This document shows, piece after piece, positions 18,001 through 21,000 of a stretch of DNA of 37,650 bases (positions are counted from its first letter, which is position 1; each line of letters starts with the position of its first letter). The position numbers were made by a program. Location of the stretch: NCBI GenBank assembly GCA_002478275.1, contig DLMY01000044.1:1-37650 (forward strand), given 5' to 3'. This DNA comes from Actinobacteria bacterium UBA7524 (lineage in GTDB: Bacteria > Actinomycetota > Coriobacteriia > Anaerosomatales > UBA912).

Positions 18001-21000
18001 CCGCCATGTTCGAACCGACGATGGCGAGGAACTTCGCACGCTCCAAGAGCGGATTGTCCGCATCCGCCGCCTGGTCCAGCACGCGTTCCTGGAACTTCAG
18101 CAACTCCAACTCGCGGTTCAGGTAAAGCGAGGGGTCGCTCAGGGGAATCGGCTCGGCAGCGGCGCCCNNNNNNNNNNNNNNNNNNNNNNNNNNNNNNNNN
18201 NNNNNNNNNNNNNNNNNNNNNNNNNNNNNNNNNNNNNNNNNNNNNNNNNNNNNNNNNNNNNNNNNNNNNNNNNNNNNNNNNNNNNNNNNNNNNNNNNNNN
18301 NNNNNNNNNNNNNNNNNNCCCTGCCCCGCCTCGGCGGACCCCACTGCCTGCTCCTGCAATCCCTCATCGGCCATCGCGCCAACCTCTTCCCGTCGCCAGA
18401 CAACGTGCAGCCGAGGTCAACCCCGACACCCCTGTCATCCTGTATCTTCCCGAACCTGACGCCGCAGCTCACAGTGGCGCAGACTACCCTGCAGCCGGAA
18501 GCTCCAGCGCAGCGCGCAAGACGTGCGGTGGGTGCTCCTGCGCCAGACGCTCGAACGCCGCGAAACGCTCAGCGGCCCGCGAGTCAAGGAGTGCTTCGAC
18601 CTCAACGAGGCCCTCAGCGCTCACGCCGGCGAGACGCGCGGCCTCCGCGCGCTGCGCATCATGCACCATGCCGAGGAACACGTGCAGATCATGCAACTCC
18701 CCGAGGCTGTCCTGGAAGCTCGTGAGGAGAGCGTGCAGCTCGTCGAAGCGCTCCTCGTAGCAGGGAGCGAAGGTCTCGAGCGCGTAGCGCAGGCGCTTGT
18801 AGTCGATGCGCAGTTCGTGCTGACGGTCGTGAGCGGCTTTTCCGAGTGCGGCGGGCTGCGCTTGGGTCACGACCGCGACCCGCTTGACGACCTCAGCCTG
18901 CGCGAANNNNNNNNNNNNNNNNNNNNNNNNNNNNNNNNNNNNNNNNNNNNNNNNNNNNNNNNNNNNNNNNNNNNNNNNNNNNNNNNNNNNNNNNNNNNNN
19001 NNNNNNNNNNNNNNNNNNNNNNNNNNNNNNNNNNNNNNNNNNNNNNNNNNNNNNNNNNNNNNNNNNNNNNTCACGAGCGACTTGAGTTCGCGCCGGCTGG
19101 CCTTCAGGTCGAGTGCGGCAAGACGTTCGTTGAGCGCGCGCAGCTCGTACTCGCGCTGCCCCATGCGGTAGCCCACGAAGAACGTCACCGCCCGACGGCC
19201 TGCCTCATCCAGTTCGGGCTCCATCCGCATGAACGCTTCGATGAAGACATCCGCGTCGCGGACCGGACCGAGCGCACGGGTGATGGCGCGGACACTGCGG
19301 TACCAGGCGCGAAAAGGCTTTCGCGGATAGAGCGGCTCGACCAACCGCATGGCCTCGCGCAGCCTCCGGGAGGCGACGCGCATGTCATGCACGGCGTCGG
19401 CATCCGCACCGGCGCGGGCACGAGCCTCAAGCTCGAACAGTGGCTTCGCTTTGGCAAGCAACAGCCGTGGAGCCGCCTCGGCCATCGGCGTGTGCGCGTT
19501 GACGCCCTCTATCACGTAACGAGATTCCATACCGCGATGGTACCCGCAAGCAGTCGCTTCATCGCGCACCGCGAGCTGTGGATTCTGGGGATACTGTGGA
19601 TAATCACCGCAGCTCAGACCGGTCGAATGCCACAACCGACCGCTCGTCACAAAGTCACAAGAAGTTCGCGAATTGGTGTTGATTCTTGTGTGCGATGGAG
19701 CATAATCCCTATTGCGAGGTCGTTGAAGAACTCGGATGGGCCAGCAGCCGCAAGGTGAAGGTTCGCTCGGGAGATGCAGCGGCCTCGCACCTTTGTGTGG
19801 GGGTCACGTAGCGCGTGAAGTCGAGTCCTCACTCACCTTTCTCGCGAGAGCTCGCTCAAGAACCCAGGCAGTTGACGGCCAAGTTTGCTCAAATACTCCT
19901 CGACAGACATCGGCGGGTTCCGAAGTGCCCGGACCGCCGCATTCACTGCCGACTGGACGCCCTCTAGGTCCTCCCGCAGTAGTTCGAGCAGAAAGCGGTC
20001 GGGCGAGAGGACACTTGCAGATGTCACCCGCCGGCAGAGGTCTTGCGGGAAGTCGCTCAGATTCAACGTCACCAGCACATCGGCTGACGTGGCCACCGCC
20101 ACGGCGAGCACGTGCTCGTCGTCCCGGTCCGGAAGGTTCGCGGCCGTGACACAGGAGGGCTCGACCATCGCATTCGGAAACGCCTCGACCATCAGCGCCT
20201 TGAGTCGGATCAGCCTGTCAGGCGGGATATCAGGTCTCGTGCGTGCCAGAGCATGCACCATCTCATCGAGTATCCGATCGGACCACCGAAGCGACAGCAG
20301 CCCCGCCTCCCCACAGCGCAGCAGAAGATCTCGCAGGGCGGCCGAGTAGAGCACGCACGCATCGGGCACAACAACCCGAGCCATCAGTACAATCCGAGAT
20401 CCTGGGACTCCGCAGATAACTGAGCGAGGGCGCGCCTTCGCTTGTAGGCGAGGACGTCCTCAACGCTGACTCTCCGGTGGCTGCCAACCCTGTAGAAAGG
20501 CATCTGACCCATCTCAAGCAGCTTGATCAGATGCGGGCGCGAAACCCCCAGTAAGTCAGCTGCCGCCTGAGTACTGAGGTCGTGGTCGAGCTCTATTACC
20601 GCAGCCTCGCCCCCCTCGGCCACGATCGACAGGACTTCGCGGGTGAGGCGGTATACATCTGCAGGGGCATCAATCGGACGCCCTTCATCGTCTGCCAGCG
20701 TGATTCGTAAGCCCTCGATACCGGGCTTCTCTCGTCTATCGTCTTTGACGCGATGCCGGGCGCTCATCACCTAGACTCCTTCGGCTCATAATCACATCAT
20801 ACGCAATAACCGAACTCAACGCAATATCCGCAATTAGAGACTGAAGGGAAACCTCGCCCTGTGACAGCGCGGGTATATACATCCTGCTACCTACATGGCT
20901 ACTGAAGGGAGGAGCCATGTCTGCGCGCAAGAGAGCTGGACAGATCGCTCTTGCCGTCGCGCTCTTCACCCTGTCGGTCACTCCGGCCATCGCCGCTCCG

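What a model noticed while it worked through the whole genome (the two positions that open the first line are those of the whole stretch)
19713..19800. Multi-copy 88-nt structured small RNA with its own promoter
Three copies of an ~88-nt sequence, each directly behind a TTGNNN-17 nt-CATAAT/TAGTAT promoter and ending in a long closing stem plus U-rich tail, lie in intergenic DNA with no common downstream gene. I read it as an undescribed trans-acting small RNA gene family: a hairpin with two conserved internal loops and GGA/AGG motifs, possibly a protein-titrating RNA. New: no Rfam family matches, and it recurs, often in tandem, in part of the order Anaerosomatales.
Evidence so far: Copies C14:19713-19800(+), C14:22050-22136(+) and C30:55435-55520(+) are 89-94% alike. 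MFE is -41 to -49 kcal/mol, z -2.3 to -3.9 against 200 shuffles each. blastn hits 29 of 146 order genomes (G000 counted), up to 5 copies, in tandem in G075, G047 and G079. In an alignment of 34 copies there are 23 consensus pairs, 8 with compensatory changes (col 20/76 UA to CG six, 27/69 nine, 28/68 eight, 38/58 ten), while the loops GAAGAA, GGAUGGG, GCAAGGUGAA and GGUUCG stay fixed. A -35/-10 pair precedes the copies, and the first ORFs downstream are unrelated. Rfam 15 at E<=5 gives nothing bacterial on C14:19500-22400. The three copies here are preceded ~120 nt upstream by TGTGGATAA-like (DnaA-box-like [...]
(Added by a program. Inside this text positions count along the whole contig: contig position 1 is position 1 of the stretch shown here. 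"Call 12" and the like, gene names such as g00115 and contig names such as C1 are that model's own, and its searches are not shown. The text may have been shortened before it was handed on; [...] marks where a part breaks off. The agent that wrote the report below was given it as the finding of a first reader that could run no searches.)

Follow-up and report, generated by a model that had tools for sequence, protein, structure and literature searches.

The report
Multi-copy small RNA behind DnaA boxes
A previously undescribed, about 85-base hairpin-shaped small RNA gene, present in several copies and preceded in most lineages by three binding-site-like repeats for the replication initiator DnaA, suggests a regulatory RNA wired to the cell's replication status.

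Summary
The genome has three copies of an ~86-nt element (window 19713-19800 and 22050-22136, plus C30:55435-55520). Only the + strand folds well (z -3.1 and -4.4). No Rfam family matches.

My covariance model finds 64 copies in 34 of 146 genomes of the order. Outside the order it gives one marginal hit in 83 genomes of the class. Base pairing is strongly supported: 97% of cells are paired and 12 of 23 pairs change on both sides. All 60 copies with enough upstream sequence have a sigma-70-type promoter ending 5-7 nt before the RNA. 51 of 54 copies end in a T-rich tail.

New here:
- **Gene unit.** It is ~225 nt long and includes a conserved upstream control module.
- **Triple DnaA-box motif.** In 8 of 13 families the module starts with three contiguous DnaA-box-like 9-mers (TGTGGAnAn). 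The triple motif occurs 30 times in 146 genomes, always 105-137 nt upstream of a copy.
- **Two kinds of locus.** One paralogue sits between lysA and hom. The others lie in accessory DNA, often beside toxin-antitoxin genes.

I read it as a stand-alone regulatory small RNA family, probably controlled by DnaA. Expression, DnaA binding and the RNA's partner are untested.

The parts
19577..19603 (+). Unit 1: three contiguous DnaA-box-like 9-mers (TGTGGATTC, TGGGGATAC, TGTGGATAA), starting at -136 from the RNA start
   Evidence: Read directly and located by script. The triple pattern occurs 30 times in 146 genomes, always upstream of a copy. The same 9-mers are clustered upstream of dnaA in this genome.
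19610..19650 (+). Unit 1: conserved control block. It holds CAGCTCAGA (19610-19618) and two phased repeats, GACCGGTCG (19617-19625) and GACCGCTCGTCAC (19638-19650).
   Evidence: In the alignment of 60 upstream regions from 13 families, 'CCG' and 'CCG.tcG.Ca' are conserved in at least 90% or 70% of copies. As RNA this stretch has no significant fold (z -1.68).
19679..19706 (+). Unit 1 promoter: -35 TTGATT, 16-nt spacer, -10 CATAAT, ending 6 nt before the RNA
   Evidence: Promoter scan. The same architecture is present in 60 of 60 copies with at least 150 nt of upstream sequence and is visible in the alignment.
19713..19800 (+). Small RNA copy 1. It is a rod-like hairpin. The closing stem pairs 19713-19725 with 19777-19789. 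It has internal loops and a GCAA apical loop, and a tail CCTTTGTGTG (19790-19799).
   Evidence: Fold -40.5 kcal/mol, z -3.1. Covariance-model score 100.1 bits. Covariation.
19833..21906 (.). Accessory islet between the two units: PIN_3 (19833-20384, -), HTH_17 (20384-20770, -) and a secreted CarboxypepD_reg protein (20917-21906, +)
   Evidence: Pfam. Other order genomes show only patchy partial matches of 65-78%, and none of 4 genomes of the same family has a match.
21914..21940 (+). Unit 2: three contiguous DnaA-box-like 9-mers (the same sequence as in unit 1)
22016..22043 (+). Unit 2 promoter: TTGATT, 16-nt spacer, CATAAT
22050..22136 (+). Small RNA copy 2
   Evidence: Fold -40.6 kcal/mol, z -4.36. 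Covariance-model score 102.8 bits. It is the sister of copy 1 in the unit tree (SH-aLRT 96).

Best explanation
The feature is a stand-alone gene for a ~85-nt, highly structured small RNA. A near-consensus housekeeping-type promoter fires 5-7 nt before the sequence TGCGAGG. The transcript folds into one long hairpin. The 12-13-bp basal stem of that hairpin, followed by a short U-rich tail, also serves as its terminator.

The gene comes with a ~100-bp conserved upstream control module. All lineages have two phased CCGyTCG repeats and an A-rich stretch before the -35. Eight of 13 families also have three head-to-tail DnaA-box 9-mers at about -105 to -137.

I infer that transcription is set by DnaA occupancy together with a second, unknown DNA-binding protein. 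The RNA level would then report the cell's replication-initiation status.

I further infer that the RNA acts in trans. Binding a protein is more likely than pairing with mRNAs. The invariant parts are a basal helix, purine-rich internal loops, a tandem G-U motif and a GNRA-type loop, and there is no long single-stranded seed.

The family has an old chromosomal home between lysA and hom. Paralogous copies have spread, duplicated in tandem and trapped accessory genes between them.

Shown here: family, strand, structure under selection, promoter and tail motifs, exclusivity of the triple box, genomic contexts.
Inferred: transcription itself, DnaA binding, action in trans, the partner.
For: - RNA-level selection. 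On 62 copies (59 distinct), 97.0% of cells are paired, 12 of 23 pairs change on both sides (105 cells), and the covariation score is 0.332 against 0.171 in shuffles (0 of 500 reach it) and at most 0.104 when partners are slid.
- Strand asymmetry. Folding z is -3.1 and -4.4 on + against -0.7 on -. Model scores are about 104-106 bits forward against 26-30 bits reverse at the same loci.
- Not coding. There are 1-3-nt indels in the loops across copies.
- Promoter. 60 of 60 copies with at least 150 nt of upstream sequence have TTGnnn, a 15-18-nt spacer and nAnnnT ending 5-7 nt before the RNA. In 19400-22400 the only two promoter-like sites are these.
- Tail. 51 of 54 copies have at least 4 T in the 8 nt after the stem.
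- The unit is the gene. Tandem copies 278-355 nt apart each repeat the control region plus the RNA and nothing else.
- Triple box. TGTGGANNNTGKGGANNNTGTGGA occurs 30 times in 16 of 146 genomes. All 30 are on the RNA strand, 105-137 nt upstream of a model hit. There are none in genomes without the RNA, and the reversed control pattern gives 2 hits.
- The 9-mers are this organism's DnaA boxes. The densest TGTGGA cluster of the genome (11 in about 535 nt; elsewhere at most 4 per 600 nt) lies about 0.9 kb upstream of dnaA. It uses the same 9-mers, including contiguous pairs.
- Independence from neighbours. Many copies face convergent genes, hom has its own -10 after the RNA, and relatives without the RNA have a compact lysA-hom junction.
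- Not a known RNA. Rfam gives nothing, SRP RNA and a 6S-like RNA lie elsewhere, and there is no tRNA or tmRNA.
Against: - No expression data of any kind, so start, end and abundance of the RNA are inferred from motifs.
- The simple terminator scan did not call the hairpin, because its loop rule does not fit. The U-tract is short and interrupted.
- Five of 13 families (f4, f5, f7, f11, f22) keep the RNA and promoter but have no TGTGGA boxes, and only 37 of 60 copies have at least 2 exact boxes. DnaA control cannot therefore be essential to the RNA's function.
- The boxes sit about 70-100 bp upstream of the -35, and their distance to the promoter differs by 13 nt between the two paralogue types. 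That is far, and not helically constant, for a classical activator or repressor.
- The identity of the protein that binds the 9-mers is untested.
- No candidate partner was found. CsrA and Ro/TROVE were not found in this 83%-complete genome, and crude searches for complementary or mimicked sequences gave only noise.
- The alignment used for one search was fitted to the model, which favours the structure.
Confidence: 0.5

Rival explanations
1. It is a genuine stand-alone small RNA, but the 9-mer repeats are bound by some other transcription factor, or are a lineage-specific add-on, and the RNA has nothing to do with replication. It is an ordinary stress- or nutrient-responsive sibling small RNA, possibly one that pairs with mRNAs.
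For: Five of 13 families lack the boxes but keep the RNA, the promoter and the CCGyTCG repeats. Multi-copy and tandem 'sibling' organisation is typical of regulatory small RNAs (recalled). The box-to-promoter distance is not constant.
Against: The 9-mers match the DnaA-box consensus (recalled: TTATCCACA / TTGTCCACA on the other strand). The very same 9-mers form the densest cluster in the genome next to dnaA. The RNA has no conserved single-stranded stretch longer than about 6 nt that could serve as a seed.
Confidence: 0.15
2. The DNA element is what matters. On this reading the triple box is a DnaA-titrating or DnaA-remodelling site, like datA or DARS, scattered in several copies. The strong adjacent promoter, closed by a strong hairpin, modulates DnaA loading through local supercoiling or transcription. 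The RNA itself would be a by-product.
For: The units are multi-copy: 3 units give 9 boxes in this genome. The boxes are contiguous and head-to-tail, as in the dnaA-upstream cluster. The triple box is coupled exclusively to a short, self-terminated transcription unit.
Against: Compensatory changes keep the RNA helices, and the internal loops are invariant, which a mere terminator would not need. Lineages without boxes keep the RNA.
Confidence: 0.1
3. It is a cis-acting element: a leader, attenuator or insulating terminator for neighbouring genes, originally for hom-thrB (threonine/methionine pathway), sensing a metabolite or protein.
For: At least 16 of 34 genomes have a copy between lysA/argS and hom, always in the same orientation as hom. 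In some genomes it lies only about 45-130 nt from the hom start. In family f10, copies also precede argS. A rod-like hairpin with conserved internal loops ending in a terminator resembles some small riboswitches (recalled).
Against: A -10-like TAnnnT lies between the RNA and hom or argS. In other genomes genes are inserted between the RNA and hom (PUCC, cytochrome c, GNAT). Many copies face convergent genes, including window copy 1. The shared orientation at one inherited locus is not independent evidence. No alternative (antiterminator) pairing is apparent.
Confidence: 0.1
4. It is the end or attachment/recombination site of a mobile or cassette-capturing element. The hairpin would be a recombination substrate and the copies would mark cassette boundaries.
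For: Unit-cargo-unit arrangements recur: window 2.1 kb, G087 ParE, G079 DUF2779, G055, G139, G127. Several copies sit at contig ends. At least 16 of 64 copies have a toxin-antitoxin-type or Fic/DOC gene within two ORFs. The window copies group with family f24 units, not with this genome's own third copy. The islet has a patchy distribution.
Against: No integrase, transposase or other recombinase lies within two ORFs of any of the 64 copies or anywhere in the 37.6-kb window. The repeat boundaries coincide with the functional unit (first box to T-tail), not with a crossover point inside it. The conserved promoter, G-U-dependent strand asymmetry and covariation point to a transcribed RNA. There is no match in plasmid or phage collections, and the one viral pattern hit fails the model.
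Confidence: 0.1

Closest known systems
Rsm/Csr-type sponge small RNAs (RsmX/Y/Z, CsrB/C) with their far-upstream GacA/UvrY activating sequence (recalled)
   Same: Multi-copy regulatory RNAs, sometimes in tandem. They have purine-rich GGA-type motifs, their own strong promoter, and a conserved activating sequence well upstream of the -35.
   Different: No CsrA gene was found in this 83%-complete genome. The GGA motifs sit in internal loops of a single rod, not in repeated hairpin loops. The upstream motif is DnaA-box-like, not a GacA box.
CcnA of Caulobacter crescentus (PMC8959179; I saw the search listing and the start of the abstract only)
   Same: A small RNA tied to the master regulators of replication and the cell cycle.
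   Different: CcnA is linked to CtrA/GcrA, is a single gene and acts on mRNAs. Here the link is to DnaA-type boxes, the gene is multi-copy, and the mode of action is unknown.
DnaA-controlled checkpoint gene sda of Bacillus subtilis (review PMC8203912; passages seen)
   Same: A very small effector gene whose promoter region is bound directly by DnaA, so that replication status is passed on to other processes.
   Different: sda encodes a protein. That review does not contain 'sRNA', 'small RNA' or 'non-coding' at all (0 occurrences).
Non-origin DnaA-box clusters: datA and DARS of E. coli, DnaA-box clusters of B. subtilis (recalled)
   Same: Several closely spaced DnaA boxes away from the origin, in more than one copy per chromosome.
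   Different: Those act on DnaA availability or nucleotide state and are not fused to a conserved structured-RNA gene.
Bacterial small SRP (4.5S) RNA
   Same: A rod-shaped hairpin of about 90 nt with conserved internal loops and a GNRA-type apical loop, transcribed from its own promoter.
   Different: The Rfam SRP model does not hit it. A bona fide SRP RNA is at G000:C10:84214-84307 (68.4 bits). This RNA is multi-copy and present in only 34 of 146 genomes of the order.

Membership tests
Stand-alone (trans-encoded) bacterial small RNA gene | Own promoter directly upstream | tested here: met
   60 of 60 copies have TTGnnn, a 15-18-nt spacer and nAnnnT ending 5-7 nt before the RNA. The scan finds only these two sites in 19400-22400. 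This is sequence evidence only.
Stand-alone (trans-encoded) bacterial small RNA gene | Own intrinsic terminator | tested here: inconclusive
   A 12-13-bp G+C-rich basal stem is followed by a T-rich tail in 51 of 54 copies. The tail is short and interrupted (CyTTTGTGT), and the simple scan did not call it.
Stand-alone (trans-encoded) bacterial small RNA gene | Secondary structure conserved through compensatory changes | tested here: met
   12 of 23 pairs change on both sides, 97% of cells are paired, and 0 of 500 shuffles reach the observed values. 7 of 23 pairs do so on an independent MAFFT alignment.
Stand-alone (trans-encoded) bacterial small RNA gene | A discrete transcript is made | not testable with these tools
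   No RNA run was listed for this stretch.
DnaA regulon promoter / DnaA-box cluster | Two or more 9-mers matching the DnaA-box consensus | tested here: met
   There are three contiguous TGTGGAnAn 9-mers in all 3 copies of this genome and 30 triple motifs in 16 genomes. The same 9-mers cluster next to dnaA. The consensus itself is recalled.
DnaA regulon promoter / DnaA-box cluster | DnaA binds and changes transcription | not testable with these tools
   Needs EMSA or footprinting and reporter assays.
CsrA/RsmA-titrating RNA | A CsrA protein in the genome and repeated GGA in hairpin loops | tested here: not met
   PF02599 is not found in G000, which is 83% complete. The GGA motifs lie in internal loops of one hairpin.
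Bacterial Y RNA (Rsr/Ro partner) | Ro/TROVE protein gene present; Rfam Y-RNA-like match | tested here: not met
   PF05731 is not found, and Rfam gives no hit.
SRP RNA / 6S RNA / tRNA-like | Match to the family covariance model | tested here: not met
   No Rfam hit on the copies at E<=10. SRP RNA and a 6S-like RNA lie elsewhere. ARAGORN finds nothing in 19000-23000.
Riboswitch / cis-regulatory leader | Consistently upstream of, and co-oriented with, the regulated gene | tested here: not met
   This holds at the lysA-hom locus in at least 16 genomes. But hom has its own -10, and many other copies face convergent or unrelated genes.
Integron attC site / mobile-element att site | Associated integrase or recombinase; recombination point inside the repeat | tested here: not met
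   No recombinase or transposase domain is found in 190 flanking ORFs of the 64 copies or in the window's 37 ORFs. The repeat boundaries equal the functional unit.

The most novel reading that the evidence does not exclude
The unit is a new kind of replication-status circuit. DnaA loaded on a dedicated triple box gates a multi-copy structured RNA, which in turn acts on the replication or cell-cycle machinery. The RNA might even bind DnaA or a DnaA regulator directly. The scattered units would then work both as DnaA reservoirs and as the source of an RNA feedback signal.
Probability: 0.12. Interest if true: 0.85.

Novelty: new variant of a known kind. Interest (0 to 1): 0.62.

Why it matters
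Small RNAs are hardly known in Coriobacteriia, and I found no paper on any in this order. The search for 'Anaerosomatales' listed 13 papers, none about RNAs by title. The search for 'Coriobacteriia' with 'small RNA' listed 8 papers, none relevant by title or abstract start.

The DnaA regulon is known as a set of protein-coding genes. The 2021 review I searched never mentions an sRNA, and my two literature searches for DnaA boxes with small or noncoding RNA found none driven by DnaA boxes.

A structured RNA whose gene carries an exclusive triple DnaA box would therefore add an RNA arm to DnaA signalling. The prediction is clean and cheap to test: DnaA footprint, box mutants, RNA level after replication stress. 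The order has cultivated members (title and abstract start of PMC9686372, listing).

If the DnaA link fails, this is still a well-supported new structured RNA family with an unusually elaborate promoter.

Tried and rejected
- **Expression data.** No RNA holder was listed for window 19300-22400, so none was laid.
- **Target prediction.** Unconstrained duplex folding against 1465 crude translation-start regions gave only full-length G+C-driven duplexes (mean -54, best -87 kcal/mol). I judged this meaningless.
- **Short complementary or mimicked stretches.** blastn-short in the genome gave only 11-16-nt chance hits.
- **Known RNA families.** Rfam gives nothing on the copies. SRP RNA and a 6S-like RNA are elsewhere. 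No tRNA or tmRNA.
- **CsrA and Ro/TROVE partners.** Not found in this 83%-complete genome.
- **Upstream 137 nt as part of the RNA.** The fold is not significant (z -1.68, 14 of 200 shuffles as good).
- **Mobile-element carriers.** No match in plasmids or phages. The one viral pattern match fails the model.
- **Wider distribution.**
  - In a class-level sample, the 83 genomes outside the order gave one 40-nt, 32-bit hit that I take as a chance hairpin.
  - A degenerate core pattern over species genomes gave 89 loci. 15 of them (17 hits) pass the model. All 15 are labelled Coriobacteriia, Coriobacteriales, Actinomycetota or Actinomycetes, or are 'uncultured Eubacteriales' metagenome bins.
  - The other 74 loci fail. 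That scan needs an exact core, so it misses divergent copies.
- **Origin-like unwinding module.** I looked by eye for trinucleotide (DnaA-trio-like) periodicity after the boxes and saw none. No formal test was done.
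Full report
**What is there**

Window positions 19713-19800 and 22050-22136 hold two copies of an ~86-nt sequence. A third copy lies at C30:55435-55519 of the same genome. In the window the repeated stretch is not 88 nt but 223 nt: 19576-19798 against 21913-22135, 90% identical without gaps. 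The third copy aligns only over the last 86 nt of that stretch, so the RNA-like part is the conserved core.

The + strand folds into one long hairpin:
- -40.5 kcal/mol, z -3.10, 1 of 200 shuffles as good;
- -40.6 kcal/mol, z -4.36, 0 of 200 shuffles as good.

The - strand does not (z -0.65 and -0.75). Rfam 15 at E<=10 over 19300-22500 returns four weak hits, none on the copies. ARAGORN finds no tRNA or tmRNA.

**Family and distribution**

- blastn with 111 nt finds 29 of 146 genomes of the order.
- A covariance model built from 36 copies finds 64 matches in 34 of 146 genomes (19 of the 98 high-quality ones), with 1-4 full copies per genome.
- In a class-wide sample of 151 genomes, the 83 outside the order gave a single 40-nt, 32-bit hit.
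- A gapped core pattern scanned over one genome per prokaryotic species gave 89 loci. The model accepts 15 of them (17 hits). All 15 are labelled Coriobacteriia, Coriobacteriales, Actinomycetota or Actinomycetes, or are 'uncultured Eubacteriales' bins. The other 74 loci, from other phyla, fail.
- There are no matches in the plasmid or phage collections, and the one viral pattern match fails the model.

**RNA structure is under selection**

RNAalifold on a plain MAFFT alignment of 36 copies gives 23 pairs, 7 with changes on both sides. On 62 model-aligned copies (59 distinct), one search gives:

| Measure | Observed | Control |
|---|---|---|
| Cells paired | 97.0% | 88.1% in shuffles; at most 48.8% with slid partners |
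| Pairs changing on both sides | 12 of 23 (105 cells) | 0 of 500 shuffles reach the observed value |
| Covariation score | 0.332 | 0.171 in shuffles (0 of 500 reach it); at most 0.104 with slid partners |

That alignment is fitted to the model, which flatters the structure, but the independent alignment agrees.

The same loci score about 104-106 bits on the forward strand and 26-30 bits on the reverse. Loop indels of 1-3 nt rule out a coding frame.

Invariant features are:
- the basal helix sequence;
- an AGAA/GGGA-type internal loop;
- GGAUGGG;
- a tandem G-U;
- a CCGCAAGG apical hairpin;
- GUUCG.

**Each copy is its own transcription unit**

All 60 copies with at least 150 nt of upstream sequence have TTGnnn, a 15-18-nt spacer and nAnnnT ending 5-7 nt before TGCGAGG. 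Typical hexamers are TTGCAT with TAGTAT or CATAAT. The 4 of the 64 copies left out lie at contig ends.

In 19400-22400 the promoter scan finds two sites, exactly these. After the basal stem, 51 of 54 copies have a T-rich tail.

Tandem copies 278-355 nt apart (G047, G052, G059) repeat only the control region plus the RNA. That delimits the gene.

**The control region**

An alignment of the 60 upstream regions from 13 families shows elements conserved in all of them:
- the -35 and -10;
- an A-rich stretch before the -35;
- two CCGyTCG-type repeats about two helical turns apart.

Upstream of these, 8 of the 13 families carry DnaA-box-like 9-mers (f1, f8, f13, f14, f15, f18 and f24, and partly f10). 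37 of 60 copies have at least 2 exact TGTGGA between -150 and -85.

In the fully developed form there are three contiguous head-to-tail 9-mers. They start at -123/-114/-105 in one paralogue type and at about -136/-127/-118 in the other.

The pattern TGTGGANNNTGKGGANNNTGTGGA occurs 30 times in 16 of the 146 genomes.
- Comparing coordinates with the model hits, all 30 lie on the RNA strand, 105-137 nt upstream of a copy.
- None occurs in a genome without the RNA.
- The reversed control pattern gives 2 hits (five-genome version).

In this genome the densest TGTGGA cluster lies at C19:61196-61729, about 0.9 kb upstream of the dnaA reading frame. It holds 11 boxes in about 535 nt, against at most 4 per 600 nt anywhere else. 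It uses the same 9-mers (TGTGGACAA, TGTGGAAAA, TGTGGATAA) and includes contiguous pairs.

I therefore call them DnaA boxes. Binding is not shown. As RNA the upstream 137 nt has no significant fold.

**Genomic context**

The window reads as follows:
- ppk1 (16058-18472, -);
- CHAD (18484-19533, -);
- unit 1;
- PIN_3 and HTH_17 (19833-20770, -, convergent with the RNA);
- a secreted CarboxypepD_reg protein (20917-21906, +);
- unit 2;
- MazE and PIN_3 (22278-22979, +).

No integrase or transposase is present anywhere in the window. The 2.1-kb islet between the units has only partial matches of 65-78% in 17 other genomes, and none in the 4 genomes of the same family.

Across the 64 copies I picked the two nearest ORFs on each side with a crude GC3-based ORF picker and scanned them against Pfam.
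- At least 16 of the 34 genomes, from nine families, have a copy in one conserved locus: argS-lysA-[1-3 copies]-hom-thrB.
- The third copy of this genome is there too: argS, the RNA, a 75-aa ORF, then hom.
- hom and argS keep a TAnnnT -10 of their own downstream of the RNA.
- Relatives without the RNA have lysA followed almost directly by hom (G145 of the same family and G017).
- Other copies lie in variable places. At least 16 of 64 have a toxin-antitoxin-type or Fic/DOC gene within two ORFs: ParE/Phd, PIN/MazE, RES, HigB-like, Fic.
- Unit-cargo-unit arrangements recur in G087, G079, G055, G139, G127 and here.

**Two paralogue types**

In a quick maximum-likelihood tree of 58 units:
- the window's two copies are sisters (SH-aLRT 96);
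- they sit with family f24 units (96) in a 'long-spacer' clade (16 rows, support 91);
- this genome's third copy sits with its own family's copies in the 'lysA-hom' clade (12 rows, support 85).

This fits either lateral spread or old duplication with losses. I did not test between them.

**Reading**

I am confident of the following (about 0.85): this is a real, undescribed structured small RNA gene family.

The probable reading (about 0.5 together with the next step) is that its promoter is controlled through the triple DnaA box and a second factor.

The guess is that the RNA works in trans by binding a protein. What is invariant is a helix, purine-rich internal loops and a tandem G-U, and no seed-like single strand is conserved.

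Known partners and families are excluded or not found:
- CsrA;
- Ro/TROVE;
- SRP RNA and a 6S-like RNA, which lie elsewhere.

Points against the DnaA reading:
- five families lack the boxes;
- the boxes are far from the -35;
- the box-to-promoter distance differs by 13 nt between the two types.

**Literature**

The searches held no DnaA-box-driven small RNA and no small RNA of this order. I saw listings only. In the DnaA transcription review PMC8203912 I searched the text: 'sRNA', 'small RNA' and 'non-coding' occur 0 times. Closest in logic are:
- the sda gene of B. subtilis (passages seen);
- CcnA of Caulobacter (title and abstract start only).

**Gaps**

- There are no expression data.
- Target and mimicry searches were uninformative.
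- Gene calls in other genomes come from my crude ORF picker, so exact starts are approximate.

Noticed in passing
window 5422-5700 and 7484-7762: A second direct repeat (279 nt, 97%). It is the 5' part plus upstream region of a DUF1016/YhcG-type nuclease gene: the full copy is at 4594-5610 (-) and a truncated copy at 7232-7672 (-). The repeat flanks an NTP_transf_8 nucleotidyltransferase gene (5935-7290, -). This is another 'repeat-cargo-repeat' arrangement in the same window.
   Followed up: partly
G000:C19:61196-61729: Eleven TGTGGA 9-mers in about 535 nt make the densest cluster of the genome. G+C is lower here (0.49-0.55), and the cluster lies about 0.9 kb upstream of the dnaA reading frame. 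It is the likely replication origin or dnaA control region.
   Followed up: partly
window 14302-19533: A polyphosphate gene cluster lies right next to unit 1: PPK2 (14302-15153, -), a histidine-phosphatase-family protein (15547-16044, +), PPK1 (16058-18472, -) and a CHAD-domain protein (18484-19533, -). The start of the CHAD gene is only about 45 nt from the first DnaA-like box, in divergent orientation.
   Followed up: no
window 3527-3931, 13470-14211, 19833-20770, 22278-22979: There are four PIN-domain toxin genes in 37.6 kb, three of them with a recognisable antitoxin partner (RHH_1, HTH_17, MazE). The window is unusually rich in toxin-antitoxin modules.
   Followed up: no
L011:3-1280, L085:2823-4115, L035:3117-4280, L087:4486-5472: A Fic/DOC-family gene (Fic_N plus Fic in the f24 genomes) lies divergently upstream of the RNA unit in G136, G134 and G139 (family f24) and in G069 (f11). 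The box region therefore lies between the two starts.
   Followed up: no
L048:1741-1810 and L051 (reverse strand, just downstream of the RNA): Between the hom -10 (TACAAT) and the hom start codon, G052 and G051 share a G+C-rich hairpin (CAGCGCCGC...GCGGCGCTG). It may be a separate hom leader.
   Followed up: no
L039:3282-3353 and L039:4001-4026 (G078): These look like decayed remnants of the RNA gene: a 27.7-bit partial model hit and a 26-nt 3'-arm fragment, both without the promoter. Copies are therefore also lost.
   Followed up: no
G000:C24:16584-16765 (-): A 6S RNA-like match at 44.7 bits, just under Rfam's gathering score of 46.4. It is probably the 6S RNA of this organism.
   Followed up: no
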